Of a DNA stretch of 64,000 nucleotides, positions 128 through 62,295 are shown piece after piece. The position numbers and the translations under genes were made by a program. Each line of letters begins with the position of its first letter. Position 1 is the first letter of the stretch. The notes under the pieces are model-generated. The model was not told the DNA's origin. It did no database searches and saw nothing but the letters and a program-made list of their open reading frames with translations. This DNA is from Octopus vulgaris (taxonomy: Eukaryota): NCBI GenBank assembly GCA_951406725.2, contig OX597821.1:37944001-38008000 (forward strand). The letters run 5' to 3'.

Positions 128-221
128 ATGAAAAGTTTAGCATGCTATATTGTCTTGTTATTTATACACTTAAAAGGTGTCATGGGGAGAACATACAAAA
201 AGGAAGTGATCCAGGTGCCAG
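128..221 (+). CDS. Exon 1 (signal peptide) of EGF-kringle-EGF-EGF-Ig protein: MKSLACYIVLLFIHLKGVMGRTYKKEVIQVP
   Basis: ATG at 128 (in-frame alternative ATG at 113). Basic N-terminus, hydrophobic core LACYIVLLFI and a plausible cleavage site at VMG|R. Donor CCAG|gtaaaa at 222 is phase 1 and matches the phase-1 acceptor at 10041 (G+AA=Glu). Confidence 0.7.
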
Positions 222-360
222 GTAAAAAAAAGACTGGAAACGTTTAGCAGAATAGTAGAATATTATCACGTCTCGTAATTACAAGGTAAATGTAAAAAAT
301 AATAGTTGTAATAATGTTTTAAACTTTGACACAAGGTCAGCTATATCGTGGGTAGGAGAT

Positions 361-521
361 TGCATCGTCCCCAGTGAGCAACTGCTACTTATTTTATCAA
401 CCCCGAAAGGAGGGAAGGTAAAATCGACCCCGGCGGAATTTGAACTTCACAACGTAAAGACGGACGAAATGACGCTACGAATTTTGTCCGGTGTACTAAC
501 AATTGTGTCACTCGTTGCCTT
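361..521 (-). mobile_element. Degraded copy of SINE family A (tRNA-like head, Meta-domain-like body)
   Basis: Reverse complement matches the aaggcggcgag...gttcaaattccgccg...cctttcggggtcgataaa consensus seen in many copies in the window. Confidence 0.7.
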
Positions 522-603
522 ATCAATATTTGTAATAATAAATATAGTCATATATACACGCATATATTCATACAAACACACGGAATTTCATATACACACA
601 AGC

Positions 604-683
604 ACCTACCTACCTACCTACCTACCTACCTACCTACCTACCTACCTACCTACCTACCTACTACATACATACATACATACCTA
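604..683 (+). repeat. (TACC)n followed by (TACA)n microsatellite
   Basis: Seen directly. Confidence 0.95.
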
Positions 684-1678
684 ACCACCCACCCATCTAC
701 CTACCTACTTACGAGGGGCGTATATTTCGGGTGTGCTAGGTGTGCACACCTATTGAAAATAGCCATTTCATTATAAATATTAACCTTACTCATTAATTTA
801 ATCACAAATCTTAATGCGAAACTTTTTGTATACTCCGGCTTGAAATTTGGTGGCATTGGGTGTGGTAGCACACTCAATACAACAACCACCATACGCCACT
901 GCTACCTACCTACCTATCCGTTTGTCTGTCTGTCTCTCTGTCTGTCAGTCTATCTGTCTCTGTCTGTCTCTCCCCCCCTTTATGAATGGATTAACGATAT
1001 TGTAAGTGTATTTTTCAAGTACTCTTTGCTACGAGGAACGAAAATACCTTTTACATATGATTTCACCTTCATTTCAGTTTCAAATATTTCATGCCAAACT
1101 ATCTAACTAATTCTCTATCAAACTCTGAGACGGTAGCGGGGGGTGGGTGGTACAAAAAAACATTAATCTAATAAATGAGATGAAGTCTGGAGTATATTTT
1201 AAATATCGATAGATTTAATGTTAATCTCTGATTTTTATTTCCTTTTTTGCATTAAATAGTTGATATATTCCGTGATATATTGATTGTCGATTCTGAATTA
1301 AGCAAGCACTTATCAAATAGCGGCGAAATCATCAACGAGTTGGGTTCTAAGTATTAAATTATTTTAACCGTTGAGTTGAATTTTAAATTAAAAATCAAAT
1401 ATGGAATTTCGCCATTTGGGTAAACAGAATTGATTCACAATCTCCGTTGTTGAAGAATACAACAACAACTCTAAATATTTAGTAGAGTCTACTGGTGTAT
1501 TATATTCATTTTTAAAAATCAACGTAAGGTTATGAAAATCTGGATAACAAGACAATCAAACATATAGAGGTATCACGATCTAGGTTTTATTTGTCGCTGG
1601 AAATCTGGTGGGAATATATTTGCGATGTAACTCAGCAGTTGGACAGTTGACAATGGTTAAGATCGGCTTCTATTTTAG

Positions 1679-1714
1679 ATCAAAAGAAACCAAAAATGAA
1701 TTCCACAATGTGCA
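1679..1714 (+). CDS. Candidate 36-nt phase 1-1 exon (DQKKPKMNSTMC)
   Basis: Acceptor cttctattttag|, strong donor A|gtgagt, length divisible by 3, open and in frame between exon 1 and the first EGF exon. No homology support. Confidence 0.4.
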
Positions 1715-1875
1715 GTGAGTAGTTCATTTCAATAAGCGCATATGTTGTAATGATGTTCATTGCGAATTTTTAGATATTATTATCGGGAAAATGTATAGAA
1801 TAATGGCCGGGGAGTCGTATATTCCAGTAGTCGTCGCACACAAAACTTCATTTATGAGTGTATTTTACGTACTAG

Positions 1876-1931
<56 letters not shown>

Positions 1932-2668
1932 GCTTTTTTTATGTTTTGAAGATAGAGCAACATTTCTGTTACAATTAAGGCGATAAGTTAGAGGCAATAA
2001 CCAGATGGCAAAGAAGAACTAGAAGAGATTGAACGTAAGACCAAAAAGAAATGCTTAGTATTTGCATTTCAGGCAGACATTTAGTATTTCCATTTCCTTT
2101 AACGAAATGTGTTAAGTGTAGCTTGTGGTACATATATTGAAAATCCGCTGATAAATTCTTTAAATAAAGAAACATGAGCACTAACGCTTTTCTTTGTAGC
2201 AATGTTAAAATCGCCCCATGCTATTATACATTCCTACAAACGCAGCGGAGTGGTGCAAGTATCACTGCTTAATAAAACTACAGCCGCAATCGAAAAGAAT
2301 TGTTTATTTTTATAAAATAAATATTCAATGTTGTTCGACGCATAAACACGGCACGCAATTGTATTATGGAAATGCATACAACAAATGCATGAATCTAATA
2401 TCATAAACATCCAATCTATACATACACACACGCACACTTTTAAAAGGAAGAACTTTCTCTTCTCGCAGACACGATATATTAATGTCTGCAAATGCATATG
2501 ACTAATAAATCACAAAAATACGACTCTACTTGAATGGCAGCGAGATCGATAACGTTTAATGTGTGGATCACCCTCGAGGGATTTGATATCACTTTGATTA
2601 ATTGGAGTACTTTTATATAAAAGGGGACTACGCACAACACACTCGCGCGCACACATACATACATGCAG

Positions 2669-2712
<44 letters not shown>

Positions 2713-3496
2713 TGTATGTATGTATATGTATTCTTCCGTGTCCATTTTGTCAAAACCTTCCAGTCATGAATGAACAATGAATCAGAGAAAAGTAATCTCA
2801 AATAAATGTAATACATAAAAAAACAAGAACCAATAAAAAATCAATGCTGGTAACTGAGATTTTTTTCTTTAAACTCAACGTATTGATACATCTCAATCTA
2901 CATAAAATAGATCTTGCGTGCAAATAGTATTTTGTTTACAATTTTCGATATTTTAAAATTTAGTTTTGCACTATTGTATAGAAAGTACAGTTAATACATA
3001 GCAATCATTCTGATTGTTTTGGTATTAAAATCGCAAACTTCTTAAAATTATTGAAGAGCATTTGTGGAGGATGTAAAACATTGAGAACAGAGAATGAAAT
3101 CATAGTGTTTAGAGAGGGGTTCCAATTGAGTTAGACATCGATAGGTTTCAGTTCGTAGCGGTGACACGAGTGAAGTGAGTAGAAATTGAATGGAGCGGGA
3201 TTTATGGTTGCTAGTAAAGCTGATGTTAATATATGCACTGAGCATAAAAATTATAATTACATAATGCTAATTATAATTATGATGGCGCAAGAAGATCATG
3301 ATATTAAGCTTAGTCATTAAATATGATAGCCACTTCGGGGAAAAAGAGATGGCAATGCCTGATATATTTCGGTTCTCAAAAATCCTCCTCGGTGAAGTGT
3401 ACACAGCTGAAGTGTGTGTGGTGAGGTTATTAAGAATTTTGTAGAATAGGTAGGGCATTGGATAAAATGCTTGGCGGTATTCAATTCTGGTTCTTA

Positions 3497-3734
3497 AAGG
3501 CGGCGAGCTTGCAGAATTGTTAGCACGCCGGGCGAAATGCTTAGCGGTATTTCGTCTGCCGTTACGTTCTGAGTTCAAATTCCGCCGAGGTCGACTATGC
3601 CTTTCATCTTTTCAGGGTCGATAAATTAAGTACCAGTTAAGCACAGGGGTCGATCTAATCGACTTAATCCGTTTGTCTGTCATTGTTTGTCCTCTCTGTG
3701 TTTAGCCCCTTGTGGGTAGTAAAGAAATAGGTAT
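3497..3734 (+). mobile_element. SINE family A, young copy nested in an older copy, with target-site duplication
   Basis: Head aaggcggcgagcttgcagaa, B-box-like gagttcaaattcc, body gcctttcatcttttcagggtcgataaattaagtaccag, tail ...gtagtaaagaaatag. Flanked by ggtat(t/g)caattctggttctt at 3476-3495 and 3730-3749. Confidence 0.85.
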
Positions 3735-4409
3735 GCAATTCTGGTTCTTTATATTCTGAATTCAATTGTTCATGAGACCAGCTTCATCTTTCATTGTTCA
3801 GAGGTTAAAATCAAGTACCTGCCTGCTACGGTGTCGACTAAATCAACTGCTCTCGCCGGTATGATAAATAAATAATGTAACAATGCAGGTTTAATTTCTT
3901 TTGGATATCAGTTTACCATTAATGTTTTACATGACGTATGAATGTTTTTAAATATTATTTTCCTTTAAATAAAATTTGAAAAAGGAAAAAAAAAAATTTC
4001 GGCTAGATTTCTACCATAACGAATTTGCTAGAATTAATTGGGTTTTCAATAAATCGAATCGCTGATGGGAGAAGTTCAAAACTAATAAAGAATCGACTTG
4101 AAATAAAAATAATTTCTAACAGAAATATAAAATGTGTATCAATGCATGTATGTTTCGATCAATGCATGGGTGCGTATATATATGAATTCATGTATGTATA
4201 CACGTATGTATTTATGCACACGTGTATGTAAATTTCATACTTTAGACATTTTAAACAGTAGTCTAGAGATGCATCAAATATCACATCGGTGCATATACAT
4301 ACATGCACACGCACCACTACAACTCTGTATGCATACACATACAAACACACACAAACACATGTGTTTGGGAAGCAAGCTTCATATCACACAGCCACGCTTG
4401 CGCGTATAT

Positions 4410-5283
4410 AATAAAAATATAAGGTACACGAAGCGCCAGGTTGCTAGAAAGTAGAGTCAAAATCCTCACCTTATCCAACATTCTCACTGAAAATACGCAA
4501 CGGACCAACAGAAATTGCAGAAGCAAGCAACATTTAACATACTATCTCAGCTAGAAAGCTGTAGAATGAATGAGGTAACAAATATAACTTGATCACGATT
4601 TCTACATCTGGCTAGTGCCTTAATTCTATTCAGCTGATCTTGCCATACTTAAAATGAAAACTCCATCTCACCACGCTGGAATGCGTTACGCTTTGAATCA
4701 TCTTGTGCCTTATTCAAAACAATGTCAGTGCTGAGATTGTTATATATGTATTATCTCCCCTAATTTCGCTCTTGCGTCTCACGTTTGATCTTTGACTTCT
4801 GGCCGAAATCAGATCGCCATGTTGATTCGCTAGCCTCTGCACGCATTTTTTTTCTCTCCTTGTTTCTTTCTGTGTTTCTTTTCTGTGTATCTTTCTGTTG
4901 AAGAGCGTAGGCTCGAAACGTAAAAGACTTGTTTTATTTATATTCCTGAGTTCCATACTAATACAATTGTTTGTTTGTATTCCACCTGCCTTCGTCTTTT
5001 GTCTATTTTCATAAAGCTTCCCGTTATATATATATATCAACGATTAAATATTCAAATGAATATTCGCATAGATATTATTATTATCAGCGGTAAATCTAAA
5101 TACTTGATAATAATAGCAATGGTAATATTAGTGGCAGCAAGCAATATTAGCATTAAATAGCTATATAATAAATTCATAATTATAATAGAGGGCACACGAA
5201 GCAGCAGCATGCTAGAAAGGAGAGTGAAAATCCTCAACTTATCCACCAATCTCACTGAATCTACGCAACGGACCAACAGAAAT
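4410..5283 (+). repeat. Diverged direct repeat of about 100 bp (4410-4515 and 5180-5283), probably ends of one repeat family
   Basis: Both copies contain acacgaagc...tgctagaaag...aaaatcctca.cttatcca...ctcactgaa..tacgcaacggaccaacagaaat. Confidence 0.7.
4890..4927 (+). ncRNA. Minimal type I hammerhead-ribozyme-like motif (core variant CUGUUGA)
   Basis: ucuuu-CUGUUGA-A-GAGC[GUAG]GCUC-GAAA-C-GUA-aaaga: perfect 5-bp stem I, 4-bp stem II, palindromic ACGU stem III. A6 is replaced by U. Confidence 0.55.
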
Positions 5284-5288
5284 CAGTA

Positions 5289-5372
<84 letters not shown>

Positions 5373-5374
5373 TG

Positions 5375-5405
<31 letters not shown>

Positions 5406-5997
5406 GTATGTACGTACGTACGTATGTGTGTGTATGTATGTATGTATGTATGTATGTATGTATGTATGTATGTATGTATGTATGTATGCTGGTTTCTCTT
5501 AGATAGACTTGATTATAATTTTAATAATAATTATTACGTATGAGGTTTTTTTCCATGCTGGTCACTTGATGTGATTATTTTAAATAACGATTTATCCCTA
5601 TTTATCTATAACAAATTTATATATATATATACGTATGTATGTTTGTATTTAAAATTTATAATTTTATATATAATTATTGTATGCCCAAAAAGTCGAAACA
5701 AAACTTATTTCCTCCATACTGAGTTAATGGCCAATCATTACGAAGCTACATAAAAAAAACTCCATAAATACATGCGATTGAAAGCGCGCTAATGAGATTT
5801 CTCCCTTTAAATAAATAAATATATATAATTACCAATTTAATATATAAATCGCATATTTCTATACTGACTACATGGTAATTATCACTAATGTGATTTTAAT
5901 CCTTATTCTATATATCGATATATGTATATATATAAATTTAAATAAGGAAAGATGTCTATAAATATACATACGTACAAATATATATGTATATACATAA

Positions 5998-6048
<51 letters not shown>

Positions 6049-6102
6049 CATATATTTGTACATATGTACAAATATATACATACATATGTATGTATATATA
6101 TT

Positions 6103-6166
<64 letters not shown>

Positions 6167-6170
6167 TATG

Positions 6171-6809
<639 letters not shown>

Positions 6810-6906
6810 AGTCAATTCAAATAAACGAACAATGAAATTTACAACAACAGACAAGAAGACATGCGCAAGGAATGTATTAGTTTGACGTTCAGTAAAAACG
6901 GAGGGT

Positions 6907-6941
6907 CTTTGACATTTCGAACAATGCCCTTCGTCAGAAAG
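6907..6941 (-). ncRNA. Minimal type I hammerhead-ribozyme-like motif
   Basis: Minus strand: cuuu-CUGACGA-A-GGGC[AUU]GUUC-GAAA-U-GUC-aaag. Canonical core, GUC triplet, 4-bp stem I. Confidence 0.6.
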
Positions 6942-7099
6942 GAGAAAAAAAGAAAAGCCCAAAGAAGAGAAAGAACTCACTAACAAGTGTGTAGTTACAC
7001 TACGCGCTCGCACACATAAATCACACAAACACACACATACATACAAATATATACATGCGTGCACACACACAATACCTACTGAAGTCCTGGCATTGACAA

Positions 7100-7169
7100 G
7101 CCGACCGTTTCGACTACTGATAGCGACCTAAGGAGAGACACTCCCTTACGATTAACTTCTCGTCGGGAC
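7100..7169 (-). ncRNA. Degenerate hammerhead-like motif with long stem II
   Basis: Minus strand: guc-CCGACGA-ga...uaagggag[ugucu]cuccuua...guc-GAAAC-G-GUC-ggc. U4 is mutated to C. Confidence 0.35.
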
Positions 7170-7412
7170 GTCCAACAAGAAGAATATGAAGAATCGTCGT
7201 AAGGCTAAGCATTTTCTGCACATGAAACTCAGAATGAATCTCTAGACCAGCCATAACTATTTTCGTTTACACACACACACCTACACACATGTGTACGTCT
7301 GTATGTGTTTATGCATGTATATATGCACCTATTCCTTCATATAAACACATAATTCCCATGTAACAATGAAACACGCACAGACGTATAAAAGAAATAACAT
7401 TGAAAGGAGTGG

Positions 7413-7798
<386 letters not shown>

Positions 7799-7959
7799 AT
7801 GTGTGTATATGCACGCATGCACACACACGCATACACACCTACTCACACACGTATACAGCACACACATATCTATCTGTCTGTCCGTCTTTTTATCTGCCCG
7901 TGTGCGTATGTATGTGTCTGTGAATGCGCGTGTGTGTTTGTCTCTACGTTTGTAAGCAC

Positions 7960-8160
7960 CACCGCTTGACAACCGACATTGCTTTCTTTATGTCCCCGTA
8001 ACATTGCAGATCGGCGTAAGTATTCGATAAAATGAATAACAGGTTTTGAAAAAGAAGTACTGGGGTCGATACGTTCGACTAAAATCAATCAAGTCTGTGC
8101 CGCTGCTTGGCTGCAGTCCAATGTCTGACAAAAGCAAAAGATAAAAGTAAAAGATAAAAG
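7960..8160 (+). mobile_element. 3' half of SINE family B (same family as 55893-56298)
   Basis: cgcttgacaaccga...tgtccccgtaac...ggggtcgat...aaaagataaaag tail matches the full copy at 55.9-56.3 kb. Confidence 0.7.
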
Positions 8161-8260
8161 ATATACACACACATATACGTACATACATGAATATATGTAC
8201 ATATGTGTGTATATGTTTATATATATATACACAGATACGCACATATATCTACATATATAT

Positions 8261-8332
<72 letters not shown>

Positions 8333-8355
8333 GTGTATTACACACACACATACAC

Positions 8356-8389
<34 letters not shown>

Positions 8390-8888: not shown

Positions 8889-8925
<37 letters not shown>

Positions 8926-10040: not shown

Positions 10041-10199
10041 AATCGATTGATGAATTACAAGGCAAATGCTCCAGCCAGTATTTTGGATATAAATGCAAAT
10101 TTAAATGCCATTGTCAAAGAGATGAACCTTGCGATAAGTTGGACGGAACTTGTTATTCAGGATGTGCAGACGATTACTGGGGACCTGGCTGTCAATTAT
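10041..10199 (+). CDS. EGF-like (MEGF/laminin-type, 8 Cys) exon: ESIDELQGKCSSQYFGYKCKFKCHCQRDEPCDKLDGTCYSGCADDYWGPGCQL
   Basis: Long polypyrimidine acceptor ttttttccag|, donor T|gtaagt, 159 nt, phase 1-1. Motif C..FG..C...C.C.....C....G.C...C....WG..C. Confidence 0.93.
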
Positions 10200-15003: not shown

Positions 15004-15740
15004 AAGGCGGCGACCTAGCAGAATCGTTAGCACGCCGGGCGAAATGCTTAACGTTACTTCGTTTGGCGCTACGTTCTGAGCTTAAATTCCGCCGAAGTCG
15101 ACTTAGTCTTTCATCCTTTCAGGGTCGATAAATTAAGTACCAGTTAAGCACAGGGGTCGATCTAATCGACTTAATCCGTTTGTCTGTCATTGTTTGTCCT
15201 CTCTGTGTTTAGCCCCTTGTGGGTAGTAAAGAAATAGGTATTCAATTCTGTTTCTTTATATTTTTTCATTTTTTCGGGGTAGATTAAATAAGTACCAGTT
15301 ACGCACTGGGGTCGATATAATCGACTTAATCCGTTTGTCTGTTCTTGTTTGTCCTCTATGTGTTTATCCCCTTGTGGGTTGTAAAAAAATAGGTATTTCG
15401 TCTGCCGTTACGCTCTGAGTTCAAATTTCACCGAGGTCGACTTTACCTTTCATCCTTTCGGGGTCGATTAAATAAGTACCAGTTATGCACTGGGGTCGAT
15501 ATAATCGACTTAATCCGTTTGTCTGTCCTCTCTGTCCTCTCTGTGTTTAGACCCTTGTGGGTAGTAAAGAAATAGGTATTTCGTCTGGCGCTACGTTCTG
15601 AGTTTAAATTCTGACGAGGTTCACTTTGCCTTTTATCCTTTCGGGGTCGATAAATTAAGTACCAGTTTAGTACAGGGGTCAATGTGATTGATTATCCCCC
15701 TCCCAACCAAATTGAGACCTTGTGCTTATAATAGAAAAGA
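15004..15740 (+). mobile_element. SINE family A tandem multimer (one head plus about four body units)
   Basis: Repeated body/tail units joined at ...aaatag|gtatttcgtctg...; the last unit carries the alternative tail cccctccc...aaattg...ccttgtg. Confidence 0.85.
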
Positions 15741-21239: not shown

Positions 21240-21660
21240 AAGGCGGGCAAAATGCTTATCATTATTTCGTCTGCCCTTATGTTCTGAGTTCAAATTCCGC
21301 CGAGGTCGACTTTGCCTTTCATCCTTTCGGGGTCGATAAATTAAGTACCAGTTACGCACTGGGGTCGATATAATCGACTTAATCCGTTTGTCTGTCCTTG
21401 TTTGTGTTCTCTGTGTTTAGCCCCTTGTGGGTAGTAAAGAAATAGGTATTTCGTCTGTCGCTACGTTCTGAGTTCAAATTCCGCCGAGGTCGACTTTGCT
21501 TTTCATTCTTTCGGGGTCGACTTTGCTTTTCATTCTTTCGGGGTCGATAAATTAATTACCATTTACGCACTGGGGTCGATATAATCGACTTAATCCGTTT
21601 GTCTGTCCTTGTTTGTCCTCTCTGTGTTTAGCCCCTTTTGGGTAGTAAAGAAATAGGTAT
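21240..21660 (+). mobile_element. SINE family A dimer with 18-bp target-site duplication
   Basis: Two body units joined at gaaatag|gtatttcg. Flanked by ggtatgttcctttgtcat (about 21220-21237 and 21656-21673). Internal duplication of ggtcgactttgcttttcattctttcg. Confidence 0.88.
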
Positions 21661-21824: not shown

Positions 21825-22058
21825 CGAAAAATTGTTACTACAATGGCAAGATCAAACAGTATATGGGGAAAAAATCGGTAACAGCTAATCTTTACACCTG
21901 TAAAAAATGGCAAGACCAAGATATCTACAAACCAGAACATTTTCCAGACAAGGTTTACCCTGAAAATTACTGTCGTGTGACTCATGATTCTAAAAAGAAT
22001 TGGTGCTATACAACCGACCGGAAAATGCGCTGGGACTATTGCAACGTAAAAGATTGCA
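21825..22058 (+). CDS. Kringle-domain exon: SKNCYYNGKIKQYMGKKSVTANLYTCKKWQDQDIYKPEHFPDKVYPENYCRVTHDSKKNWCYTTDRKMRWDYCNVKDC
   Basis: Acceptor ctttccttttcag|, donor A|gtaagt, 234 nt, phase 1-1. Six Cys with kringle hallmarks Y.G...T....C..W, ENYCR, WCYTT, RWDYC. Confidence 0.95.
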
Positions 22059-24585: not shown

Positions 24586-25294
24586 ATTTTGTTGAATCTG
24601 AATAATCTTTACAAATCGTTCCAACAAGTGAGATTCTAGCGATTTTCAACTGGAAGCGAACTTTTCTAACAATATTGAAACACCACAACGGAAATCGCTC
24701 GTCAGATAAGGAGTTAAATATCGAATGCTGATGGGTAGATGATGGCCAGCATTATTAAAACAGACGCATTGGTTGGATAGAACGATTTTCCGACATGGCA
24801 AGTTAAAAACCTGTTAAATCAAGCGTTAATTATCGTAATTATGAAATATAATCTAAAGCCCTGGCTCTCACCACAAGACTAGTAAACCTCATTTCAGTTT
24901 TCAATCAGCACAGAAGAGTTTGACTCACATTCAGCAAAATTTAAAATATATAACTACAGAAATCTTACTAATAGGACCGGGTATATAGACAAAGTAAGAT
25001 TTTTGTTGGCGATGAAAGAAAAATAAGGAAAGGGGTCGAAAGGGAAAGCGGGTGGGTGTGATCTAAAGAGAGATCAAAGGAAAAGGTCTTATAGCAACAC
25101 ATTTACGTAATAATAGAGCCGAGCATAAAATTATAGAAATACAGTAGAAATGATACTGGAGATGAAGTAAAAGATCTAAAATAGAGTAGAGGTCTCTAGT
25201 GATGTAGGAAGCTGAATAGGGGAACCGGAAGTTGAGAAGGCAGAGGTTGAAGTACTGATTAACAGTAAAGTACATGGTGATACGATATAAAGAC

Positions 25295-25529
25295 AAGACG
25301 GCGAGCTGGTAGAAACGTTAGCACACCGGGCGAAATGCTTAGCGGTATTGTGTCTGTCGTTGCGTTCTGAGTTCAAATTCCGCCGAGGTCGACTTTGCCT
25401 TTCATCCTTTCGGGGTCGATAAATTAAGTACCAGTTACGCACTGGGGTCGATGTAATCAACTTAATCCGTTTGTCTGTCCTTGTTTGGTCCCATCTACGT
25501 TTAGCCCCTTGTGGGCAATAAAGAAACAG
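25295..25529 (+). mobile_element. SINE family A copy with target-site duplication gatataaagac
   Basis: Full head, body and tail; gatataaagac at 25284-25294 and 25529-25539. Confidence 0.85.
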
Positions 25530-25874
25530 ATATAAAGACCAGGTGGGAAACACAAGTTAGTCGTTGTTTATTTTACTGTGGGGTACAATAAAAATAAAAA
25601 TGAGTGTACGTATACAAGCAACGGAATAAAAAAAAACAAAACACGACTTTAAATGAAAATTGTCCATAGGAAAACGGCGTGAAATACTAGCTTGCAAAAC
25701 GGAAGCAATGACTTTTTGCAAAATGACTTAGGAACCAGGTTATCAACATGACAAACTAACAACCGTGAACAAGCTAGTAAAGAATGATGTGATTTGCAAA
25801 TTTGATTACAAATGTTTGATTACAAACTTTTACAGCTCTGTTACACTGGCCATACAGGTGCAACACTATCTATA

Positions 25875-28025: not shown

Positions 28026-28163
28026 AATGTATTCCTGGTCGGTTTGGAAATAATTGTGAAAAAGAATGTCATTGTAAAGATCCTGACGAAGTGTGTAACA
28101 GCATCCTTGGTCATTGCACCAGTGGTTGTGCCTTGGGATGGACTAATCCTGATTGCCAGAAAG
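28026..28163 (+). CDS. EGF-like (8 Cys) exon: KCIPGRFGNNCEKECHCKDPDEVCNSILGHCTSGCALGWTNPDCQK
   Basis: Acceptor ttttcttatacag|, donor G|gtaagc, 138 nt, phase 1-1. Same Cys spacing as the exon at 10041. This frame is not in the supplied ORF track. Confidence 0.93.
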
Positions 28164-41749: not shown

Positions 41750-43387
41750 CAAGAAAACATCCACTTAAGAGAAACTGACACCCGAAGAAGTTTAATAACT
41801 TGATTAAAACACTTCAGAAAAAAAAAACGGGAATACCTGTGCCGGTGGAAAAAAAAACCCAGGGAACGTGTATCGACTAAACTATGAAACCTATAAAAGA
41901 TTAATATTAAAAGAGCTTAATTCCAAATATAGAGTAACTATGGAAAAGAATTTCTTCGATATCAATTTAGAAATTAAAAAAATTATGATGGTCTGTGACC
42001 TCAAAGAGCATAAAAGGAATTTTCACGACAGTCCCTCTTTTAGACTTATTTGCGCGACTGAATCAGATACTTATCAACTTAGTAAATCCATTCTTGATAC
42101 GATATTACCCCTAATAATTCCGAATTTATCTCTTATATTATGGTGTAATACACTGGTTCACCTCTAAAGAAAATGTAATTACTCGTTTATAAAATTTGGT
42201 ATCAATAGTTATTATTCTAGCACCTCCCCTATTCTCTTAAACAAGTCCCTGATTTTCGCTCAAAGCCTCTCTCTTATAACTAGGGACAAAATAGATATTC
42301 TTTTAGCTAGGAAAACTATTATAGAATTTGAGGGTAGGTTATGGACGAGGTCTGACATCCCTAATAATTTTGATTGCGTTATGGGTTCGAGTGACTCGGC
42401 TCACTTTCGAATATGGCACGAAGTTAACTTCTTAGACACTCCTTTAGATATAAACTCCAGCTTATACTACTTCTATAGAAAACCGGATGAAGTCACTAGG
42501 TATATGAGCAGATCTTCTAATCCTCCCCCTAACGTATTAAAATCATTAGTAAATGGAATTTCGCGACGAATTACGCAGTCATCAGCTAATAGGGATATAT
42601 TTGATTCATATTCCCACAACTATAACTCTGTTCTTTCTAAAGCAGAATATTATCAGGAGATTGCTTTCCTTAATTTGGAACTTCAGATACCTACTAGGAT
42701 TTGCAATGAAATAGAAGTGAAAAGAGGTACAAAATCCCACCTAGTTGAGCAGATAAACCTACTAGGATAGCCTCTAGCATTCCTATTAAATCAATGAATA
42801 AGATATATATGAATAAGTCAATAGAATCTAAGGACGGTAAAATGTCTAATATGTATAATAATAATAATAGTAAGGATATGACTGGGAAGAATGGAGCCTG
42901 CTCTAATGATAACATAAATACCGGAATAAGACCATATTCAATAATCAGAGAGTTCGAGAGGTAGTAAAGAAGTGATAGGGCCCGCTTTCATAAACATAAG
43001 AATTCTTGAAATAATAACGTAGTCTAGTATAATATTCCCTTTAGCTGTGTTATATCTATTAATATATATAATAAATTTATGATGATTTTAGCAAAAAACT
43101 TATCATCTTCTCATAAGAACAATAAAATCTTCTCCCGTAAGACAATAACAATCTCATATTCCTAATAAAGATACTATTACAGCCCGATTTAACAGAAGAA
43201 ATATAAAATTATCCCGGAGGATTAGTAATAGTAACATTGTCAACAGTGCTTAAAACCCCTGCAATGATAATAATATTGGATTTGTAGGAATCCAAAACAA
43301 TAGAACTAATATAAACAATGATGCCGCTACATATAATAATTCAGGCATTACCGACACAAAACATAATACTGCAATGGACTTGTGTGG

Positions 43388-49287: not shown

Positions 49288-50388
49288 ACGTCACTGTATT
49301 ATTTTAATTCGATTAGTGCGCGTTCTTCAATGGAGTTTGCAACACTCTATTGAAAACGTATCAAGCCCTTGAAATTTAAGCTGGTCCTCAGTGGAAAATC
49401 TTGATACATTTCATTTTGCTTCAAATTCACTGAAATGCATTCTCAAAGAATATCTTTTTTCAATTTAATCTTTGAGATAACAACGTTTACAGATCAAATT
49501 ACATTTCTCAACGCATCTTAGGCTTATGATAACACAGTTTAATTTCATTTAATGATTATTCAATCTTTAAGAGAAAAAAACAAACAAATAAACTCAACTT
49601 TTAACATATGAAAGACAAAATATAGCGAATACGTTAAATTCACTTACTTAATTTCTATGATTGGCAAAGAAATTTAATCTAAGAGTGATTTTGTCGTAAA
49701 TGAAGAAGTAGAAGGGAAGTGAATTAGTGCGTAAATTCATTTACTTCGGCAAGAAAAATCTGCAAACAACATCGTAGCTCGGAAGCAGTTTTAGATTTTT
49801 TTGAAGCAATAACTATTTCTACGTTTCTATGTTTTGTCTTTTTTTATCTTATTGTTTTATTGCCAATTTTACAGAGAGTCAGCGAAAACGTCATCTTTTA
49901 AAAGGATCCTTTTACGGACGGAGGCGTTGTAAGTTCAACACTTAAAACACAAAATATGAGAAACGTTTGCATTTTGTTGTGGCATTCTAAAAAGAATTGT
50001 TTTATATCTGCTTCATAATCTCCAAGTAATTTGGTACTAAAGTTATTTCAATGAAACCTAACTAACAATTACCGAATGCTTGAACCCCGCCTCAACCGCC
50101 AGCTCGATCGATATAAAAAAATTATATAAATACTCTTCACTATCATATTGTAACTTTATAATGGACAACCAACTTTTCTCCCCTAAGTCCGAATTTTGGA
50201 TCATGTGTTTATGATATATCCAAGGCAAGGCAATAGATTGGAGAAGACACTTGTAGTTTAGTGACTCAGTGGTTTTTATCCGGTAGGATTAAACTTACAA
50301 TGAAGTAGGATTACGAAAGAAATATTGACTTTTAAGTGAAATACATTTAATCGACCAAGATCTACATAAAATTTGGCATTTGAGTTGC

Positions 50389-52827: not shown

Positions 52828-52974
52828 AGGAAGCTTGCCCTGCTAACACATATGGTTGGGATTGTTCCCAGAAGTGCTATTGTAGAGATCCTTCTAACTG
52901 TCACAGGCTAAGAGGACCTCTACCATCCTGTGAATGTAAAGAGGGTTATTTTAACCGGCCAAATTGTCAACGAG
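52828..52974 (+). CDS. EGF-like (8 Cys) exon: EEACPANTYGWDCSQKCYCRDPSNCHRLRGPLPSCECKEGYFNRPNCQR
   Basis: Acceptor ttctctactaattccag|, donor G|gtatgc, 147 nt, phase 1-1. CP..TYG..C...C.C motif. Not in the ORF track (too short). Confidence 0.9.
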
Positions 52975-55083: not shown

Positions 55084-55147
<64 letters not shown>

Positions 55148-55151
55148 TATA

Positions 55152-55472
55152 TATCAAATATGAATTAGAGATAAAACCACTATTATGCAACCGAATTTAT
55201 TTCAGTTGAATTTAAACTTAATTGTAATTCGAATTTAATTGTAGCCATGAAATTGTAGTGTTTTCACTTATTATATTATATATTTATCATTCATTTCATA
55301 CTTTTTGAAATCTAGTTATAAGTTATATATAAGAAAAAGAAAAACAATGTCTATCACTGTTTTAGTTGCATAATAGTGGTTTTGTCTCTAATTCATATTT
55401 TATATACTGATACTGTGAAATTTGATTTGATACTAAATTGAATTTTTACCTGTAAGTTTGGAGTTATACACC

Positions 55473-55476
<4 letters not shown>
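55152..55476 (+). mobile_element. Short element with a 40-bp inverted repeat, inserted in (TA)n (probable Penelope-like terminal remnant)
   Basis: 55152-55191 is the reverse complement of 55365-55404 (2 mismatches); the element continues about 70 bp past the right arm to ...cacccta(ata). Confidence 0.5.
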
Positions 55477-55516
<40 letters not shown>

Positions 55517-55892
55517 CACACACACATATATATATATATAAATGAGAGAGAATGAGGGAGGGAGGGGAAAGAGAAAGTGAGTGTGAGCGCTATCTCGCAG
55601 ACATGAACGCATTTTAGAGTAGTTATATCAAGTGTGCAGAGTAATCATTGTTTACTTAGTTTTGAAATTGTTTGAAAATTGAAAAAAAACCAAAAAACAA
55701 ATTATCAGTTATGAAATGTTAATGGATCTCGTTGATTGAAGACCTGTTATACATATCTGAATGTAAGGATCAAACGGACCTTATCCAAGTTCTTCAACAA
55801 AAAGTAATGAATGATGTTTAATATACAAACTTTTAATAACAGCATACGTACATGTGAACACGCATGCGCACACACATATGTTTAAACATACC

Positions 55893-56298
55893 AGGAGTGG
55901 CTGTGTGGTAAGTAGCTTGTTTACCAGCCACATGGTTCCGGGTTCAGTCCCACTGCGTGGCACCTTGGGCAAGTGTCTTCTACTATAGTCTCAGGCCAAC
56001 CAAAGCCTTGTGAGTGGATTTGGTAGACGGAAACTGAAAGAAGCCCGTCGTATATATGTATATATATATATATATGCGTGTTTGTGTGAGTGTGTTTGTC
56101 CCCCTAGCATTGCTTGACAACCGATGCTGGTGTGTTTATGTCCCCTTTACTTAGCGGTTCGGCAAAAGAGACCGATAGAATAAGTACTGGGCTTACAAAA
56201 GAATAAGTCCCGGGGTCGAGTTGCTCGATTAAAGGCGGTGCTCCAGAATGGCCGCAGTCAAATGACTGAAACAAGTAAAAGAGTAAAAGAGAAAAGAG
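55893..56298 (+). mobile_element. SINE family B, full copy (tRNA-like head, CORE-like ccttgggcaagt segment, AAAAGAG tail)
   Basis: A box gtggctgtgtggtaa, B box gggttcagtccc, internal (TA)/(TG) tract, tail gtaaaagagtaaaagag. Confidence 0.85.
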
Positions 56299-56779
56299 AA
56301 TACATATAAATATATACCTGTGTGTGTGTGTATAAAGTTTTTCTTTGCCAATTGTTTGCGTTATTCTTGTGCGTTCTTCAACGGTTTTTCACTAATGATT
56401 CTATCTAAATATTCAAAGATTGTGACTTTCTTAGGTTTCTAAGTGTCAAAATAATTCTATTCATCCCACGTTTTTCTATTGGTAAAACAGACGCCGATTT
56501 TCTGAAAACACTATTTGCAATTAATCTAGCTTTTCAGAGTCAATAATCGAAACGATTTTTGTATTTGATTTTTGTGTTAAGGAATACGTTATGAACATTT
56601 CTATGCAAAGTATTGCTATATTTCAGGTAATGACGTTGTTTTTTCTGTTCTCCATCAAATATTTATATCGCCTTTCGGCAGTAGGCATTCCAAAACTGGC
56701 TGACTCTAGCGATATCATCCCGATGCCATGTACTGTGTCACTATTTTATGGCATAGAAGTTCTGTGGGGAAATAGAATG

Positions 56780-58980
56780 CAGAATTTATTCAGGGCAATT
56801 ATATATGCCTGAGAGTATTTCCTAAATTAAAATCTAGAAGTGGGGAAATCCAGATGTATGATACACTTATAGGACCTGTGAATCAGGACTTCTTGAGGAA
56901 AGCAAATAAGTGTCTGCTTTACTAGGGATATTAGGAATTTTTAATTACACATTTCTGGGCATCAATCACGAGTCGAGTCAACCGAACAACGTGCTGGCGA
57001 AAGGCCTCACACATCTGGCTGGAATCACTCAGCCCGTGTCCGTCTCGGTCCGTCAAAGACCGAATTGTGGTTTTTCTTACCACGCTGCGCATCCGCCACA
57101 TCGGCCCATCGAACAGCTTTGATCCCCTAGTTTCTTAGAGCATGCGCTTTAGCTCTGACAATGCATCGTTCCTGTTTCGCATTGAAGAACTGGTCTAATG
57201 TCATTCTCGCTGCTAGCACGTCGGTTGCAATTCCACTACAAATATTCTCATCCCGTTTAGGTGCCAACCCCTCCACCTATTTTTTTCTAACGCCACTTCT
57301 TTGCTAAACCCTATTATTGTAATCTTTCTTTTGAGAGTCGGCCACCACCTGTTGTTGATGGCCCCGCCTGTCAAATTCTGCTTAACTAAATTGTTAACCC
57401 GGTCCCTGTAAGCCTTACGTACCGGAAAGGACATGTTCAGCTTCCAGTACCCGGGTTCTGACCTACGCATCTTATCTAGGTTGACCGTACAGATTACAAT
57501 CTTATGATCTGAATTGGCGACCGTTTAAAATAAATGGACATCCTACACTATTACTATCGACTTTCCTAGCGAAAATTCTATCTATATGCGATTTAGCTGA
57601 CCCTAAGCAGTTGATCCAGGTCAACATTGGCGCATTAAGGAAATCTCGTCGGTTAGATAGTTGAAACTGGCTGATCAGGTGCTTGAGGCTCTTGTACCCC
57701 GCTCTTTTATCAGCTACTCCCACACAATCCTAGCTCTGGTCTAATACTCCATCCCAGCCCCACCCCCACTAACAGTAAAGGGCGAGACGTACCTAGAAAA
57801 TCTTTCAGGCCCCCAAAGAAATTCAACCGTTTGGCTCTGGTAGACGGCCACCAGGGAAAAGACACTACCTTCACTATTGCTCACGTCCAGGACCGCCAAA
57901 TTTCCGTCCGATTCGAGTAAATCCACCTTGCGTCGAGATCCAGTTCTTTCCTAAACAGCACGGACACTTCACCTCCCATTCCCAGCCCACTAACAGATGC
58001 AAAGATTTGATAGTCGTTGAACAAGGAGGCCAGTGTGCGTGTATTAGAAATCCTAGTCTCACTAGCAGCAATTACATGCTGTTCTAAACACCTAAGGTCG
58101 TTGAGCAGGCACCCTTGCTTCCAGGGCGACCCTAGGCCTCGAACATTTAAAATTCCTACTCTTAATACGGCCATGTTAGCAAGCTAAAGGGAGAAGGGAA
58201 AGGTCTGCTTACCTCCCGGTGTCTTGTGAAGGCCGAGTGGTTCGACTTTCATAACTGGTGGGTTTTTTTGGGAACCCTTTTAAGAGGTTCGATGTGGGTC
58301 TCACGTTCACCGTTCCCACGTCCCCAGGAAAGCTTTCTCCAATTGTACAGGAACTGAGCAACATTCGCACCAGAAGCAAATCTTCTGGTGCACAAAATAT
58401 GACCGATTCGAAAATCACACCCCGTGCTTATGTGTGTATTTTTGTTTGGTCTGAGGCGGGTGGGAGAGCTCCCTTCGTTTTCCCATAGAGTGGTTAATGT
58501 CTTTGGATCTTCGTTTGTTGTTGCTGGTGGTTTTGCCAGTGCTGGTGCTGCTTGTGGTCCTCATCCTGGTGCAGGCAGCAGTGGAGGCCTCTGACCCCTT
58601 GCACTTTTTACCAATTTGGGGCAGCAAACTCGCAAGGAATAGTTTCTCTACAATCAAAACAATGCAGCCTGTTGGCATCAGTCATTATGTATGTCCCCGT
58701 CCCGTTCTGGAGACGGATGTTGTCTGGGTGTTTTTTTTATGTTTTCGGACCTAATCTGGAGAAGTATCTCCAGTTCAACCCCGGACCAGTCATCCCTGGC
58801 AGTTCTTCTCCACTCCATCGGGACGGTACCCATGCCCTCCACAATTACACATCCTAGAAGCCGCAACATATAAAGTCCTGGTGAGATCCTAGGAATGCAG
58901 ACACATGCTATACGCTTCCCCATGTGGGAGGGGTACATAATGACTTTTCTGGTTTGGCATGTTTCTACTATAGACACACT
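56780..58980 (-). mobile_element. Degraded Tx1/L1-clade non-LTR retrotransposon (ORF1 remnant plus ORF2 APE domain)
   Basis: ORF2 start at 58174: MAVLRVGILNVRGL...IAASETR...GGEVSVLF; then LVAVY, TW...SHIDRIF, SDHK and GYWKLN. Upstream remnants are GC-richer; interrupted at about 58980 by a SINE. Confidence 0.8.
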
Positions 58981-58984
58981 GTCT

Positions 58985-59353
58985 GGATTTTGTGGGGAGG
59001 GGACAGTCGATTACATCGACCCCAGTACTCAACTGGTACTTAATTTATCGAACTCGAGGGGATGAAAGTCAAAGTTGATCTCGGAGGAATTTGAACTCAG
59101 AACGTAACGACGGGCGTAATATATATTTATTACCCACAAGGGGCTAAACATAGAGTCGAAAAACAAGGACAGACATAGATATTAAGTCGATTACATCGAC
59201 CCCAGTGCGTAACTGGTACTTAATCTATCGACCCCGAAAAGATGAAAGGTAAAGTCGACCTCGGCGGAATTTGAACTCACAACGTAACGGCAGACGAAAT
59301 ACCGCCGAGCATTTCGCCGGGCCTGCTAACGATTCTGCTAGCTCGCCACCTTA
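58985..59353 (-). mobile_element. SINE family A dimer
   Basis: Head at 59352, unit with tail ...gccccttgtgggtaata, then a headless second unit with the alternative tail. Confidence 0.85.
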
Positions 59354-60914
59354 ACAACAACATGTATGTATGCAGATATACACTTGTCAATTGCACTCAA
59401 ACAAGGAAAACTAAACGTCGCCACAGTCTTCTTAAATGCAATCGCTCTGAGACTTACAGAGATGCCATTCAACCACGATAGTAGGGATGCTTAACTACGG
59501 GGAACCACTTTTATGCCATCGTCTATTAAGATAAGTAGTCCTATTAAATTGATATTTCTCCAAAACTCTATTTGGCGATGCTCCAGCTTTTTGACATATT
59601 TCCAATCCCTAAGATTAAAGCCAGATATATATGTTATCGAGAACCTATGGATTACACATACACACACACACACATACGGGCGTGCGCGCGCATAGCTGTT
59701 CATATATAATGATGAATGTGTAGTATGACAATAGCTGTGTAGTTCCTTGTTGTCTCTCCTCCCCACCAAATTCATTAATTTAATCTCTGGTTCTGATACC
59801 GTGATTATATCCAGTTTAAATTTCTTCCTCTCTGAGCTTGATTTCTTTCATCGATTTCAATAAATATTGTCGGTCATTTATTCTTGTGTTCCAGTTGTAC
59901 TGAATCCCGATGTTTCATCCAATACTAACATGTATTAAGACATATATTGATGTCATTCTGCATGTCACGCAAATACTCTTCAACACACTCCAGCCCTGTT
60001 ACCACCGTTAGACTCGACATTTAGTCCCCTTAAAAATTACAAGCTTGTCGCTAGTTGAAAATAGTTAAATATGCCTTTATACAATGTAATTATTGGTAAT
60101 TACACATTTTGAAACTTTCAAATACTGTCTCTCTATGAAGTAGTAAACTATAATGGTTCATGTTGAAATATGGTTAAAATTCTTAGCAGGTGGGAAAGTC
60201 GCGTTTATTAATTCCAACAGTATCAGTACTTTAGTCATTAGAATGATAAGTGCTCGTATATCAAAAGAGTAGTTTATTTTCATAAGGGATTGCTAGTACG
60301 CAGTAAATGCAACAACTAGTTTCGTTTGGAGACAGGTGGACGGCAAAAGGAGTTACAATAAAATCTGCAATTAAGAAACAATTGGTGATAACCCAATGTA
60401 AATAAAGTATGTCAAGTAAAAGAGCTCTGGACCATTGAGGTAGGATCCATGTGGTTCATTGAGCAACTAGAAATAGCATCCACAGCGTCCTAAAATCACG
60501 CTGTCCTTTAAGTAGAAATGATACATCGAATAATGTAAATACACTCTAAATACACGGAATGGCCACGGCTGAAAAACAAGCCTACTCGATGAAGTGGGCC
60601 TACACGAGGATAAGAACGCCAACAACAACAATAATCTATAAACTTAATCTGTGAAGAACAGAAAATTACAAACGAAATACTAAGACATAATGTTGAAAAT
60701 ATATTTCATTGCATGATATTTAAATTGGCATTTTCTATTTCCATACCTATACCAATTTTGAAATATAAAAATGGTCCAAGTCTTTTGGGAAATATTCTTT
60801 TAATTTCTTCAAAACATAGTTTCAGGTCAGACATGGTAGAAGAATTGAAGAATTTACATTCTGATATTTAAAAATTTTGTATTTAAATCTCGGTAGGTTA
60901 GATTTCTAGCTAAG

Positions 60915-61293
60915 CAGCCCGAAATTTTGGGGGAGGGCGCCAGTCGATTAGATGGATCCCAGCACGCAACTGGTACTTAATTTATCGACCCCGAGAGGAT
61001 GAAAAGCAAAGTCAACTTCGCCAGAATTTGAAGTTAAAACATAAAGTCAGACGAAACACCTATTTCTTTATTACCCACAAGGGGCTAAACATAGAAGGGA
61101 CAAACAAGGACAGACATAGGTATTAAGTCGATTACATCGACTCCAGTGCGTAACTGGTACTTAATTTATCGACCCCGAAAGGATGAATGGTAAAGTCGAC
61201 CTCGGCGGAATTTGAACTCACAACGTAACTGCAGACGAAATACCGCTAAGCATTTCGCCCGACATGCTAACGTTTCTACCATCTCTCCGCCTT
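60915..61293 (-). mobile_element. SINE family A dimer
   Basis: Same architecture as 58985-59353; junction ...aagaaatag|gtgtttcgtctg on the minus strand. Confidence 0.85.
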
Positions 61294-62004
61294 AGTGGTT
61301 GGCAAATATTACGATGACTATTATATTGAATATGGCCCGTTCCTTCTCTCTGGTCATTCGACAACAGCAATTAAATCTACTACTACTAGATTTGACATGG
61401 TGCTACTTCTTGTCCTCCTATTGAATATTATAGTTCACCCTATTTATATCCCGTAATAAACACTTGGTTCTTCACTCCTTTGATACTCTGACCACCATCA
61501 ACCCAGAAAAGTGTTACTTGAATTTCAACCATATTGATCTAACTAATCAATGTAGGCCTGGAAAGGTTAAGGCCGTTAATCCTCACCCACATAATTTATA
61601 TTTCTCTAGTGTATTAGATTAGTCTCAATTTCTTTTCTCTTTCGTTTTATGTCTTATGAAATGTTATTCGATAAAATAATTCGACAAATGATTTGGCATA
61701 AATAATTGAGATGAATTTTATACACGTGCGAAGTATGATTAATTATTCCATATTTCCTGATAAACATCACGATAGCTTATGAAAAACAGCTAATAAATTA
61801 TTTCGAATCACCTCTGTTCAATAATTCATTCTAAATTCAGACCAATAGATTCAAAACAGTTACGTCAAATTTTCAAATTTTAGATTTAATCACTTTATAT
61901 ATTATTTTAATGAAAGCAGTCGAGCCAAATAAAGCTGATTTAATTAGACATTACATCAATATATATTTCTATTATCAAAATTAAAATTTTCTTTTCTATT
62001 ACAG

Positions 62005-62295
62005 TAACGAAGCCTCGAATCGTGGATTTTAAGAACAAACGCGTGAATCCCGGAGAATATACGGTTTTCAACTGCACTATTTCAGCCTTTCCTACTCCTC
62101 GGCGAAACGATATTACTCTCAAGAGCTCTGTTAAGAAACAAATTACATTAAGTGAATCTCACGAACTAAAAACATTCAAAAATAGTCGGGCCAATATTTT
62201 TAAAGTAAATTCTGTGGCCCAAAATGAGAAATATACATGTTATATGGATGGCGAGTCTGGTAAGACGTCTCTTACGATTCCTGTCGACCTGTATG
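62005..62295 (+). CDS. Ig-like domain exon: VTKPRIVDFKNKRVNPGEYTVFNCTISAFPTP...EKYTCYMDGESGKTSLTIPVDLY; gene continues past the window
   Basis: Acceptor ttttctattacag|, donor G|gtgagt, 291 nt, phase 1-1. P-x-I, V..GE....NC...A.P.P and Y-x-C motifs give the two canonical Ig Cys. Confidence 0.9.

What the first reader, a model, noticed from the sequence alone, without database searches (positions are those of the whole stretch)
128..62295. Mosaic secreted/surface protein: signal peptide - EGF - kringle - EGF - EGF - Ig, spread over more than 62 kb
Seen: six exons with canonical splice sites join in frame to about 354 aa with natural junctions (CQL-S-KNC, DC-K-CIPG, CQK-E-EAC, CQR-V-TKP). Established: 8-Cys EGF repeats of this type occur in MEGF10/Draper/SCARF scavenger receptors and Tie kinases, and EGF repeats followed by an Ig domain is the Tie-like order. 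Kringles are typical of plasminogen/HGF-family proteins, ROR and Kremen. I do not recognise a characterised vertebrate or insect protein with a kringle inserted between such EGF repeats upstream of an Ig domain. Inference: the ectodomain of a lineage-specific receptor (FN3/TM/tyrosine phosphatase or kinase downstream would be expected), possibly for immune or cell recognition. This is the best candidate in the window for an uncharacterised system.
Basis: partly seen in the sequence, partly recalled or inferred. Interest (0 to 1): 0.75.

Follow-up and report, generated by a model that had tools for sequence, protein, structure and literature searches.

The report
Kringle-tipped mollusc receptor tyrosine phosphatase
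These exons encode the outer tip of an octopus cell-surface tyrosine phosphatase that is conserved across squid relatives, clams and snails; databases name it after vertebrate PTPRT, but it carries an unusual kringle-and-EGF tip that likely binds an unknown partner and is predicted to control the enzyme inside the cell.

Summary
Five of the six exons are real and form 322 N-terminal residues of an already annotated 1,607-aa receptor protein tyrosine phosphatase (RPTP): EGF-kringle-EGF-EGF-Ig, five FN3-type domains, a basic cleavage site, one membrane helix, an intact D1 and a degenerate D2. The gene spans about 670 kb. Two junctions are spliced in contigs of 4 of 4 runs. The proposed signal exon (128-221) is unverified: no record uses it, and the one 5' junction seen comes from an exon 316 kb upstream. 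A 54-nt cassette exon was missed. The gene is not octopus-specific: one well-supported orthologue clade covers cephalopods, bivalves and gastropods, a paralogue and an annelid RPTP share the EGF-kringle-EGF tip, and a brachiopod relative has lectin domains in the same slot. The database name (PTPRT/K/M-like) misleads: there is no MAM domain, and a clade with vertebrate R2B is rejected (p-AU 0.003). Single copy, a conserved tip and no exon variants favour an endogenous ligand over polymorphic immune recognition. Ligand and function are untested. I found no paper describing this architecture. Verdict: an uncharacterised variant of a known receptor class, moderate interest.

The parts
128..221 (+). 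The supported first exons lie outside the window: C8:37628413-37628488 (316 kb upstream) and about 67 kb upstream.
   Evidence: In frame; best signal-like candidate of 4 rows in 110 kb; TATA-like word 29 bases before the window; in 0 of 15 records; bases 31-180 have an 87% inverted copy 1.3 kb before the window; far exon joined to exon 2 in run X1
10041..10199 (+). EGF repeat 1 (8 Cys, MEGF10/Tie type)
21825..22058 (+). Kringle exon (6 Cys, symmetrical phase 1-1); lacks the acidic pair of the plasminogen lysine-binding site
   Evidence: Pfam E 5.5e-14; spliced on both sides in 4 of 4 runs; alignment to plasminogen kringles (site numbering recalled)
28026..28163 (+). EGF repeat 2
49875..49928 (+). 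54-nt phase 1-1 cassette exon encoding 18 basic-rich residues; replaces EGF3 in one O. sinensis isoform model
   Evidence: 18 of 18 residues match P0013; AG and GTAAGT ends; single copy
52828..52974 (+). EGF repeat 3; skipped in isoform models of two Octopus species
62005..62295 (+). Ig (I-set-like) domain. The gene continues beyond the window: FN3 exons at window-equivalent 77,587-103,590, helix and juxtamembrane exons 109,416-154,300, PTP D1 and D2 exons 165,780-352,887.
   Evidence: Pfam under cut-off; pLDDT above 90 and Ig-fold matches; single copy in the genome; downstream exons

Best explanation
The exons encode the outer tip of a single-pass receptor tyrosine phosphatase conserved across shelled molluscs and cephalopods, which likely binds an endogenous cell-surface or matrix partner through its EGF-kringle-EGF-EGF tip and is predicted to dephosphorylate proteins at cell contacts through its first phosphatase domain. 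Shown: exon structure, full domain order, orthologue clade, intact D1 motifs, degenerate D2, single copy of the Ig exon, splicing of exons 2-4. Inferred from vertebrate RPTPs: cleavage at the basic site in the membrane-proximal FN3 into two subunits that stay together; the Ig-FN3 stalk as a spacer; ligand binding changes clustering or position and so the access of D1 to substrates; D2 as a regulatory or substrate-binding pseudophosphatase. Inferred from conservation: the ligand is a conserved protein of the animal's own and is probably not bound through a plasminogen-type lysine pocket. Cassette exons (kringle, EGF3, the 18-aa exon) and alternative first exons would tune the tip by tissue. Confidence that it is an active RPTP of this architecture is about 0.95; the figure given is for the whole mechanism.
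For: 35 blocks match 1,599 of 1,607 residues of P0004 exactly, in order, in the 464 kb held. Pfam: kringle, fn3, Fn3_PTPRU, two Y_phosphatase stretches (on the 98.6% identical P0001). D1: KNRY and WPD in 17 of 17 orthologues, HCSAGVGRT in 16 of 17; D2 has WPD in none. A K/R-R pair at the cleavage position in 16 of 17, strict R-x-K/R-R in 8 of 17. The top 50 of 120 listed hits to the intracellular part are 45 named molluscs and 5 unnamed records; the orthologues form one clade, 100/100. Mean pairwise non-cysteine identity over 17 species: EGF2 0.58, kringle 0.56, EGF1 0.53, EGF3 0.49, Ig 0.47, FN3 0.35-0.46, so the tip is held more tightly than the stalk. One match for the Ig exon in the genome; no differing letters in exons 2-4 in 4 runs; 99.9% identity to O. 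sinensis. Kringle-less isoforms in Mytilus, EGF3-less isoforms in Octopus and oysters. Furin cleavage and D1-active/D2-inactive layout in vertebrate RPTPs: PMC12067748, PMC7959691 (passages).
Against: No ligand, substrate, tissue or activity data. The kringle region of the predicted model is low-confidence (pLDDT under 50 at residues 53-78 and 95-128), so the tip's shape is unknown. Cysteine-rich modules may be more conserved than FN3 domains for folding reasons alone. Four runs of contigs drop rare variants and are a thin test of polymorphism. The closest described invertebrate relatives (snail MEGF/galactose-binding RPTPs) are linked to parasite resistance. Isoform diversity comes from database models, not from reads seen here. 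The strict furin motif is missing in 9 of 17 orthologues.
Confidence: 0.55

Rival explanations
1. Immune recognition receptor: the tip binds microbial or parasite molecules on haemocytes, like the snail MEGF/galactose-binding RPTPs.
For: EGF-rich RPTPs lie in schistosome-resistance regions of Biomphalaria (PMC12297450, PMC13712769, passages). In the tree the MEGF-type RPTPs (and the chelicerate pair) fall on the same side as this gene against R2B, LAR-like and R3-like rows, weakly (78/96). In Lingula the slot between two EGF repeats holds two F5/8C lectin domains.
Against: No lectin domain here; single copy rather than clustered; tip more conserved than stalk; no exon variants in 4 runs; the MEGF RPTPs form their own long-branched clade (97/98) apart from this short-branched one; neither snail paper mentions a kringle in its main text.
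Confidence: 0.15
2. Functional stand-in for vertebrate R2B (PTPRM/K/T): a homophilic adhesion receptor in which EGF-kringle-EGF-EGF replaces the MAM domain.
For: Apart from one sponge protein with four PTP domains, the best-scoring hits outside lophotrochozoans are fish R2B proteins (52 of 120 listed rows). D1-only PDB chains score best for PTPRK and PTPRT (327, 325 bits) against 266 for PTPRA D1. It shares Ig, FN3s, the Fn3_PTPRU domain and a basic cleavage site. Only 2 Fn3_PTPRU matches in the genome, and none of 87 MAM matches lies near a PTP match (compared by eye).
Against: No MAM domain, which defines R2B (PMC10815196, passages); a clade with R2B is rejected (p-AU 0.003; with the wider lophotrochozoan group 0.025); five rather than four FN3-type domains.
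Confidence: 0.25
3. The window's exons mainly give a secreted EGF-kringle-EGF-EGF-Ig protein starting at exon 128-221, as the title of the finding suggests.
For: Exon 128-221 is in frame and signal-like; shedding of the cleaved ectodomain is known for vertebrate RPTPs.
Against: The Ig exon ends in a phase-1 donor with no stop; contigs carrying exons 2-4 are up to 6,542 nt long; 14 of 15 cluster members are full-length membrane forms and none starts at 128.
Confidence: 0.05

Closest known systems
Vertebrate R2B RPTPs (PTPRM, PTPRK, PTPRT, PTPRU)
   Same: Ig, FN3 repeats, membrane-proximal Fn3_PTPRU domain with a basic cleavage site, one helix, tandem D1/D2; about 45-46% identity in the intracellular part; source of the database name.
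   Different: No MAM; EGF-kringle-EGF-EGF instead; one more FN3; not one clade with them (p-AU 0.003).
Snail MEGF/galactose-binding-domain RPTPs (Biomphalaria SudRes1; LG5R subgroup 1C)
   Same: MEGF10/Tie-type EGF repeats outside, tandem PTP domains inside (PMC12297450, PMC13712769, passages).
   Different: Those carry a lectin domain and occur as variable, clustered paralogues; this gene has a kringle, Ig and FN3 stalk, one copy and high conservation. I did not fetch the snail sequences themselves; unnamed, Haliotis and Mercenaria MEGF RPTPs stood in for them in the tree.
Tie-like EGF-Ig-FN3 RPTPs of chelicerates (Tachypleus P0049, Centruroides P0170) and similar ectodomains in Ptychodera (P0197) and Branchiostoma (P0062)
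   Same: EGF repeats followed by Ig and FN3; in the chelicerates also Fn3_PTPRU, helix and D1/D2.
   Different: No kringle; in most of them more EGF and FN3 repeats; separate clade with unresolved position; seen here only as annotated records.
Tie1/Tie2 receptor kinases
   Same: Order EGF-EGF-EGF-Ig-FN3; top two Foldseek hits.
   Different: Phosphatase instead of kinase; no N-terminal angiopoietin-binding Ig pair (recalled); kringle inserted; TM-score 0.28, rmsd over 20 A, so no shared overall shape is shown.
Plasminogen/HGF kringles
   Same: Six cysteines and the aromatic/arginine core.
   Different: The two acidic residues of the lysine-binding site (recalled) are His/Ser here and are not conserved in orthologues.

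Membership tests
Receptor-type classical PTP with tandem domains | Ectodomain, one membrane helix, two PTP domains in one gene | tested here: met
Receptor-type classical PTP with tandem domains | D1 with pTyr loop, WPD loop, HCxxGxGR and Q loop; D2 degenerate | tested here: met
   motifs in 16-17 of 17 orthologues; D2 lacks WPD in all 17
Receptor-type classical PTP with tandem domains | Phosphotyrosine phosphatase activity | not testable with these tools
   needs an assay
R2B (PTPRM/K/T/U) | N-terminal MAM domain | tested here: not met
   no MAM hit in P0001/P0002; definition from PMC10815196
R2B (PTPRM/K/T/U) | One Ig and four FN3, the last of PTPRU type with a basic cleavage site | tested here: inconclusive
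   one Ig and PF23144 with R-K-K-R present, but five FN3-type domains in all
R2B (PTPRM/K/T/U) | PTP domains group with vertebrate R2B | tested here: not met
   p-AU 0.003 under LG+G4, 30 rows, 2 R2B rows; tested after a first FastTree had been seen
R2B (PTPRM/K/T/U) | Homophilic trans adhesion | not testable with these tools
   needs an aggregation assay
R2A (LAR) | Three N-terminal Ig domains (recalled) and grouping with LAR | tested here: not met
   one Ig; clade with the octopus LAR-like locus C10:11.7 Mb (named from recalled motifs, 302 of 557 columns filled) rejected, p-AU 0.0008
R4 (PTPRA/E) and PTP69D | Grouping of PTP domains | not tested
   no such row in the tree; PTPRA D1+D2 scores as high as PTPRS (482 vs 484 bits)
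Snail MEGF/GBD RPTPs | Galactose-binding (F5/8C) domain | tested here: not met
   no such Pfam hit
Snail MEGF/GBD RPTPs | Clustered, variable paralogues | tested here: not met
   Ig exon single copy; one distant paralogue 60 Mb away
Tie receptor kinases | Intracellular tyrosine kinase domain | tested here: not met
   two PTP domains instead
Lysine-binding kringles | Acidic D-x-D/E pair plus Arg and two aromatic residues (recalled) | tested here: not met
   aromatic and Arg residues kept, acidic pair absent

The most novel reading that the evidence does not exclude
This gene is the conserved member of an unnamed lophotrochozoan RPTP subfamily with a swappable sensing slot between its first two EGF repeats: a kringle in molluscs and annelids, F-type lectin domains in brachiopods, and splice-out forms with an empty slot. 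The same EGF-kringle-EGF cassette was shuffled onto a second RPTP and an adhesion GPCR, pointing to an unknown, half-billion-year-old ligand-receptor pair from whose family the parasite-resistance RPTPs of snails radiated.
Probability: 0.3. Interest if true: 0.62.

Novelty: new variant of a known kind. Interest (0 to 1): 0.38.

Why it matters
No vertebrate or fly RPTP that I know of (recalled) carries a kringle, and six targeted literature searches returned no description of this architecture, yet it is kept as a near one-to-one gene across cephalopods, bivalves and gastropods. Automatic names (PTPRT, K, M, alpha, epsilon, S, F for the same orthologue in different species) hide it in transcriptome and GWAS studies. 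A correct orthologue set gives a handle on phosphotyrosine signalling in mollusc development, nerves or tissue contacts, and a stable reference beside the fast-evolving EGF-RPTPs tied to schistosome resistance. It does not overturn a principle: mosaic RPTP ectodomains in invertebrates are known.

Tried and rejected
Octopus-specific or unannotated gene: rejected. Kinase downstream: rejected. True PTPRT/R2B orthologue: rejected on MAM and on the tree. Retrocopy as the source of the spliced contigs: the kringle and Ig exons have one near-identical match each in the genome. Homodimer prediction for two copies of the tip: no answer, score 0.00 against a mark of 0.32, alignment not used; no evidence either way. 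ESM Atlas: best cluster 0.87 (Tie-like, echinoderms), a lead only. No RNA holder listed for the Ig exon. Read support for the exon 1-2, 4-5 and 5-6 joints was not obtained and stays open. Contig lengths upstream of exon 2 (277, 305, 310 nt in three runs) fit a start just behind an initiator-like word 325 nt before the far exon's donor, and overshoot the TATA-like word before exon 128-221, but this is arithmetic on lengths, not sequence. The support labels printed were shifted by re-rooting and were not used; one search replaces them. The 30-row tree left out 30 of the 60 rows (extra orthologues, two R2B rows, non-receptor PTPs, long branches). The structure model is unreliable over the kringle. 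dN/dS could not be computed (no orthologous DNA).
Full report
Observation. The window lies at G000:C8:37944001-38008000, + strand. Six exons (128-221, 10041-10199, 21825-22058, 28026-28163, 52828-52974, 62005-62295) join without a stop to 354 aa; every intron is phase 1 with GT/AG ends. Pfam finds the kringle over cut-off (E 5.5e-14), the Ig under cut-off and no EGF family over cut-off. Contigs of 4 of 4 runs from 4 studies join 10199>21825 and 22058>28026 with GT..AG ends and show no differing letters in these exons; the runs are RNA by guess only. The later joints rest on database proteins: exons 2-6 give 322 of 322 residues of P0004 (CAI9726685.1, Octopus vulgaris, 'receptor-type tyrosine-protein phosphatase T').

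The first exon. None of the 15 members of the octopus cluster starts with exon 128-221; 12 start with an exon at window-equivalent -67056..-66939, 2 (O. bimaculoides X4, Argonauta) with another, and 1 is a fragment. The loose end of the X1 contig before exon 2 encodes that second N-terminus and occurs once in the genome, 316 kb upstream (coding part C8:37628413-37628488), ending in a phase-1 GTAAGT donor. Exon 128-221 does look like a signal exon: it was the best of 4 rows in a crude scan of 110 kb (that scan's donor list missed the -67056 exon), with a TATA-like word at -29. But bases 31-180 have an 87% inverted copy 1.3 kb upstream with a multi-copy repeat between them, and no record or visible contig uses it. 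I leave it as a possible third promoter, about 35%.

The whole gene. In 464 kb of genome held around the window, 35 blocks match 1,599 of 1,607 residues of P0004 exactly and in order: FN3 exons at window-equivalent 77,587-103,590, helix and juxtamembrane exons at 109,416-154,300, D1 and D2 exons at 165,780-352,887; with the far exon the gene spans about 670 kb. The order is EGF, kringle, EGF, EGF, Ig, four FN3, a PTPRU-type FN3 with R-K-K-R, one helix, D1, D2. D1 keeps KNRY and WPD in 17 of 17 orthologues and HCSAGVGRT in 16 of 17; D2 has WPD in none.

Range. A search with the ectodomain returned 23 proteins: 22 molluscan or unnamed at 42-99% and one horseshoe crab protein at 32% without a kringle. 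A search with the intracellular part scored 7,988 candidates and listed 120: the top 50 are 45 named molluscs and 5 unnamed records (62-98%); the next 18 are one sponge protein, three broken models of the first group, a second group that is molluscan where named, and Owenia, Tubulanus and Lingula (43-48%); the last 52 are fish R2B proteins (42-46%). The orthologues cover cephalopods, bivalves and gastropods; no chiton member was seen; Babylonia has two. A profile of EGF-kringle-EGF-EGF-Ig against 1.84 billion representatives gave one full-length single-stretch match among the best 150 (Gigantopelta), and 10 of 150 with an EGF-kringle-EGF run by my domain profiles. Those I could name are molluscs or annelids: among them a Babylonia adhesion GPCR, Mercenaria and Haliotis EGF-rich proteins and a Paralvinella fragment; one unnamed protein joins it to dermatopontin. 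In the own genome, 14 kringle matches include a second single-exon kringle at C8:98.09 Mb inside a paralogue, EGF-kringle-EGFx5-helix-D1-D2 without Ig or FN3 (CAI9727201.1 cluster), and a third before a kinase domain at C8:102.9 Mb. Owenia P0249 is EGF-kringle-EGF-FN3s-PTPRU FN3-helix-D1-D2; Lingula P0254 has two F5/8C lectin domains between two such EGF repeats. Mytilus isoform models lack the kringle and octopus and oyster models lack EGF3.

Placement. In a 30-row D1+D2 tree (LG+G4), the orthologues (100/100), the paralogues (100/100), R2B (100/100), the chelicerate pair (100/100) and the MEGF-type RPTPs (97/98) are each firm, but the backbone is open. Holding the orthologues with R2B costs 38 log units (p-AU 0.003); with the octopus LAR-like locus p-AU 0.0008; with the paralogues p-AU 0.46 (not rejected); the group with paralogues, Owenia, Tubulanus and Lingula is in the best tree at 78/67. 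Limits: no R4 or PTP69D rows, only two R2B rows, own-genome rows are partial and named from recalled motifs, no mixture model. Against this, raw similarity does favour R2B among vertebrates, and the genome shows no MAM match near a PTP match. So it may work like R2B, but it is not filed as one.

Mechanism. Shown: structure, order, motifs, clade, copy number. Inferred: cleavage at the basic site (a K/R-R pair in 16 of 17 orthologues, strict motif in 8 of 17) as in PTPRK (PMC12067748, passages); a stalk that sets the distance; a tip that binds a conserved partner. Non-cysteine identity across 17 species is 0.49-0.58 in the tip and 0.35-0.47 in the stalk, the Ig exon is single-copy and O. sinensis is 99.9% identical: the pattern of a receptor with a fixed, probably endogenous, ligand rather than of the clustered, variable MEGF/GBD RPTPs of snail resistance loci (PMC12297450, PMC13712769, passages). 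The kringle keeps the aromatic core but lacks the acidic pair of lysine-binding kringles (site recalled). The model is confident for EGF2-EGF3-Ig and poor for the kringle; its best structural matches are Tie2 ectodomains by order, not by overall shape.

Literature. Searches for this architecture: 1 listing, astacins; 37 papers with 3 of 4 terms, 25 listed, none on it by title or abstract start; 0; 0; 0; 1 listing, SRCR genes; some searches were for context. I read passages only, of PMC12297450, PMC13712769, PMC10815196, PMC7959691 and PMC12067748; in the first three 'kringle' was searched and occurs 0 times in the main text. Supplements were not opened; the snail papers' domain tables could list kringle RPTPs. 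The library lacks most subscription journals, among them (recalled, not seen) the sea urchin and pan-eukaryote phosphatome surveys that name invertebrate RPTP classes, so absence from print is not established.

Verdict. Real, annotated, misnamed, mollusc-wide and uncharacterised; a new variant of a known kind. Interest 0.38.

Noticed in passing
G000:C8:98021280-98098097 (-), loci L045, L048-L055: Paralogous RPTP with EGF-kringle-EGFx5-helix-D1-D2 and no Ig/FN3; its own clade includes chiton, gastropods and bivalves; the kringle of its O. bimaculoides and chiton orthologues escapes Pfam.
   Followed up: partly
window 31-180 and 1,301-1,457 bases before the window (L033): 87% inverted duplicate that covers the start of the proposed exon 1, with a roughly 400-bp dispersed repeat between the arms (about 40 copies listed of 3,130 candidates) and what reads like a mariner-type transposase remnant just upstream (label by eye).
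   Followed up: partly
G000:C8:102922368-102922610 (-), loci L002, L044, L046: Kringle exon followed by a helix and tyrosine kinase exon, MuSK/Ror-like by recall.
   Followed up: no
G000:C14:73.28-74.84 Mb: Cluster of about eight closely similar PTP loci, with a close relative at C30:7.6 Mb.
   Followed up: no
P0102 (Babylonia), P0133 (unnamed), P0061 (Littorina): The EGF-kringle-EGF cassette also sits in an SRCR-GPS-7TM adhesion GPCR, behind dermatopontin, and twice in tandem in a Littorina EGF protein.
   Followed up: partly
G000:C9:71851125 (-), C25:14010456 (+), C2:120299834-120305168 (-): PTP domains in long intron-free frames; the C9 one has a degenerate active-site motif; the C2 one is a long-branched receptor type with a PTPRU-type FN3.
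   Followed up: no
window 42168-42770 (+): 200-codon open frame in the intron without a Pfam match; looks like a retroelement remnant by eye.
   Followed up: partly
window 15137-15381, 21345-21431, 25225-25833 and others: Dispersed SINE-like repeats that draw very high contig depth, so depth in introns is no sign of transcription here.
   Followed up: no
L014-L015 (window-equivalent about 183585-184677): LINE reverse-transcriptase-like frame inside an intron of the D1 region (label by eye).
   Followed up: no
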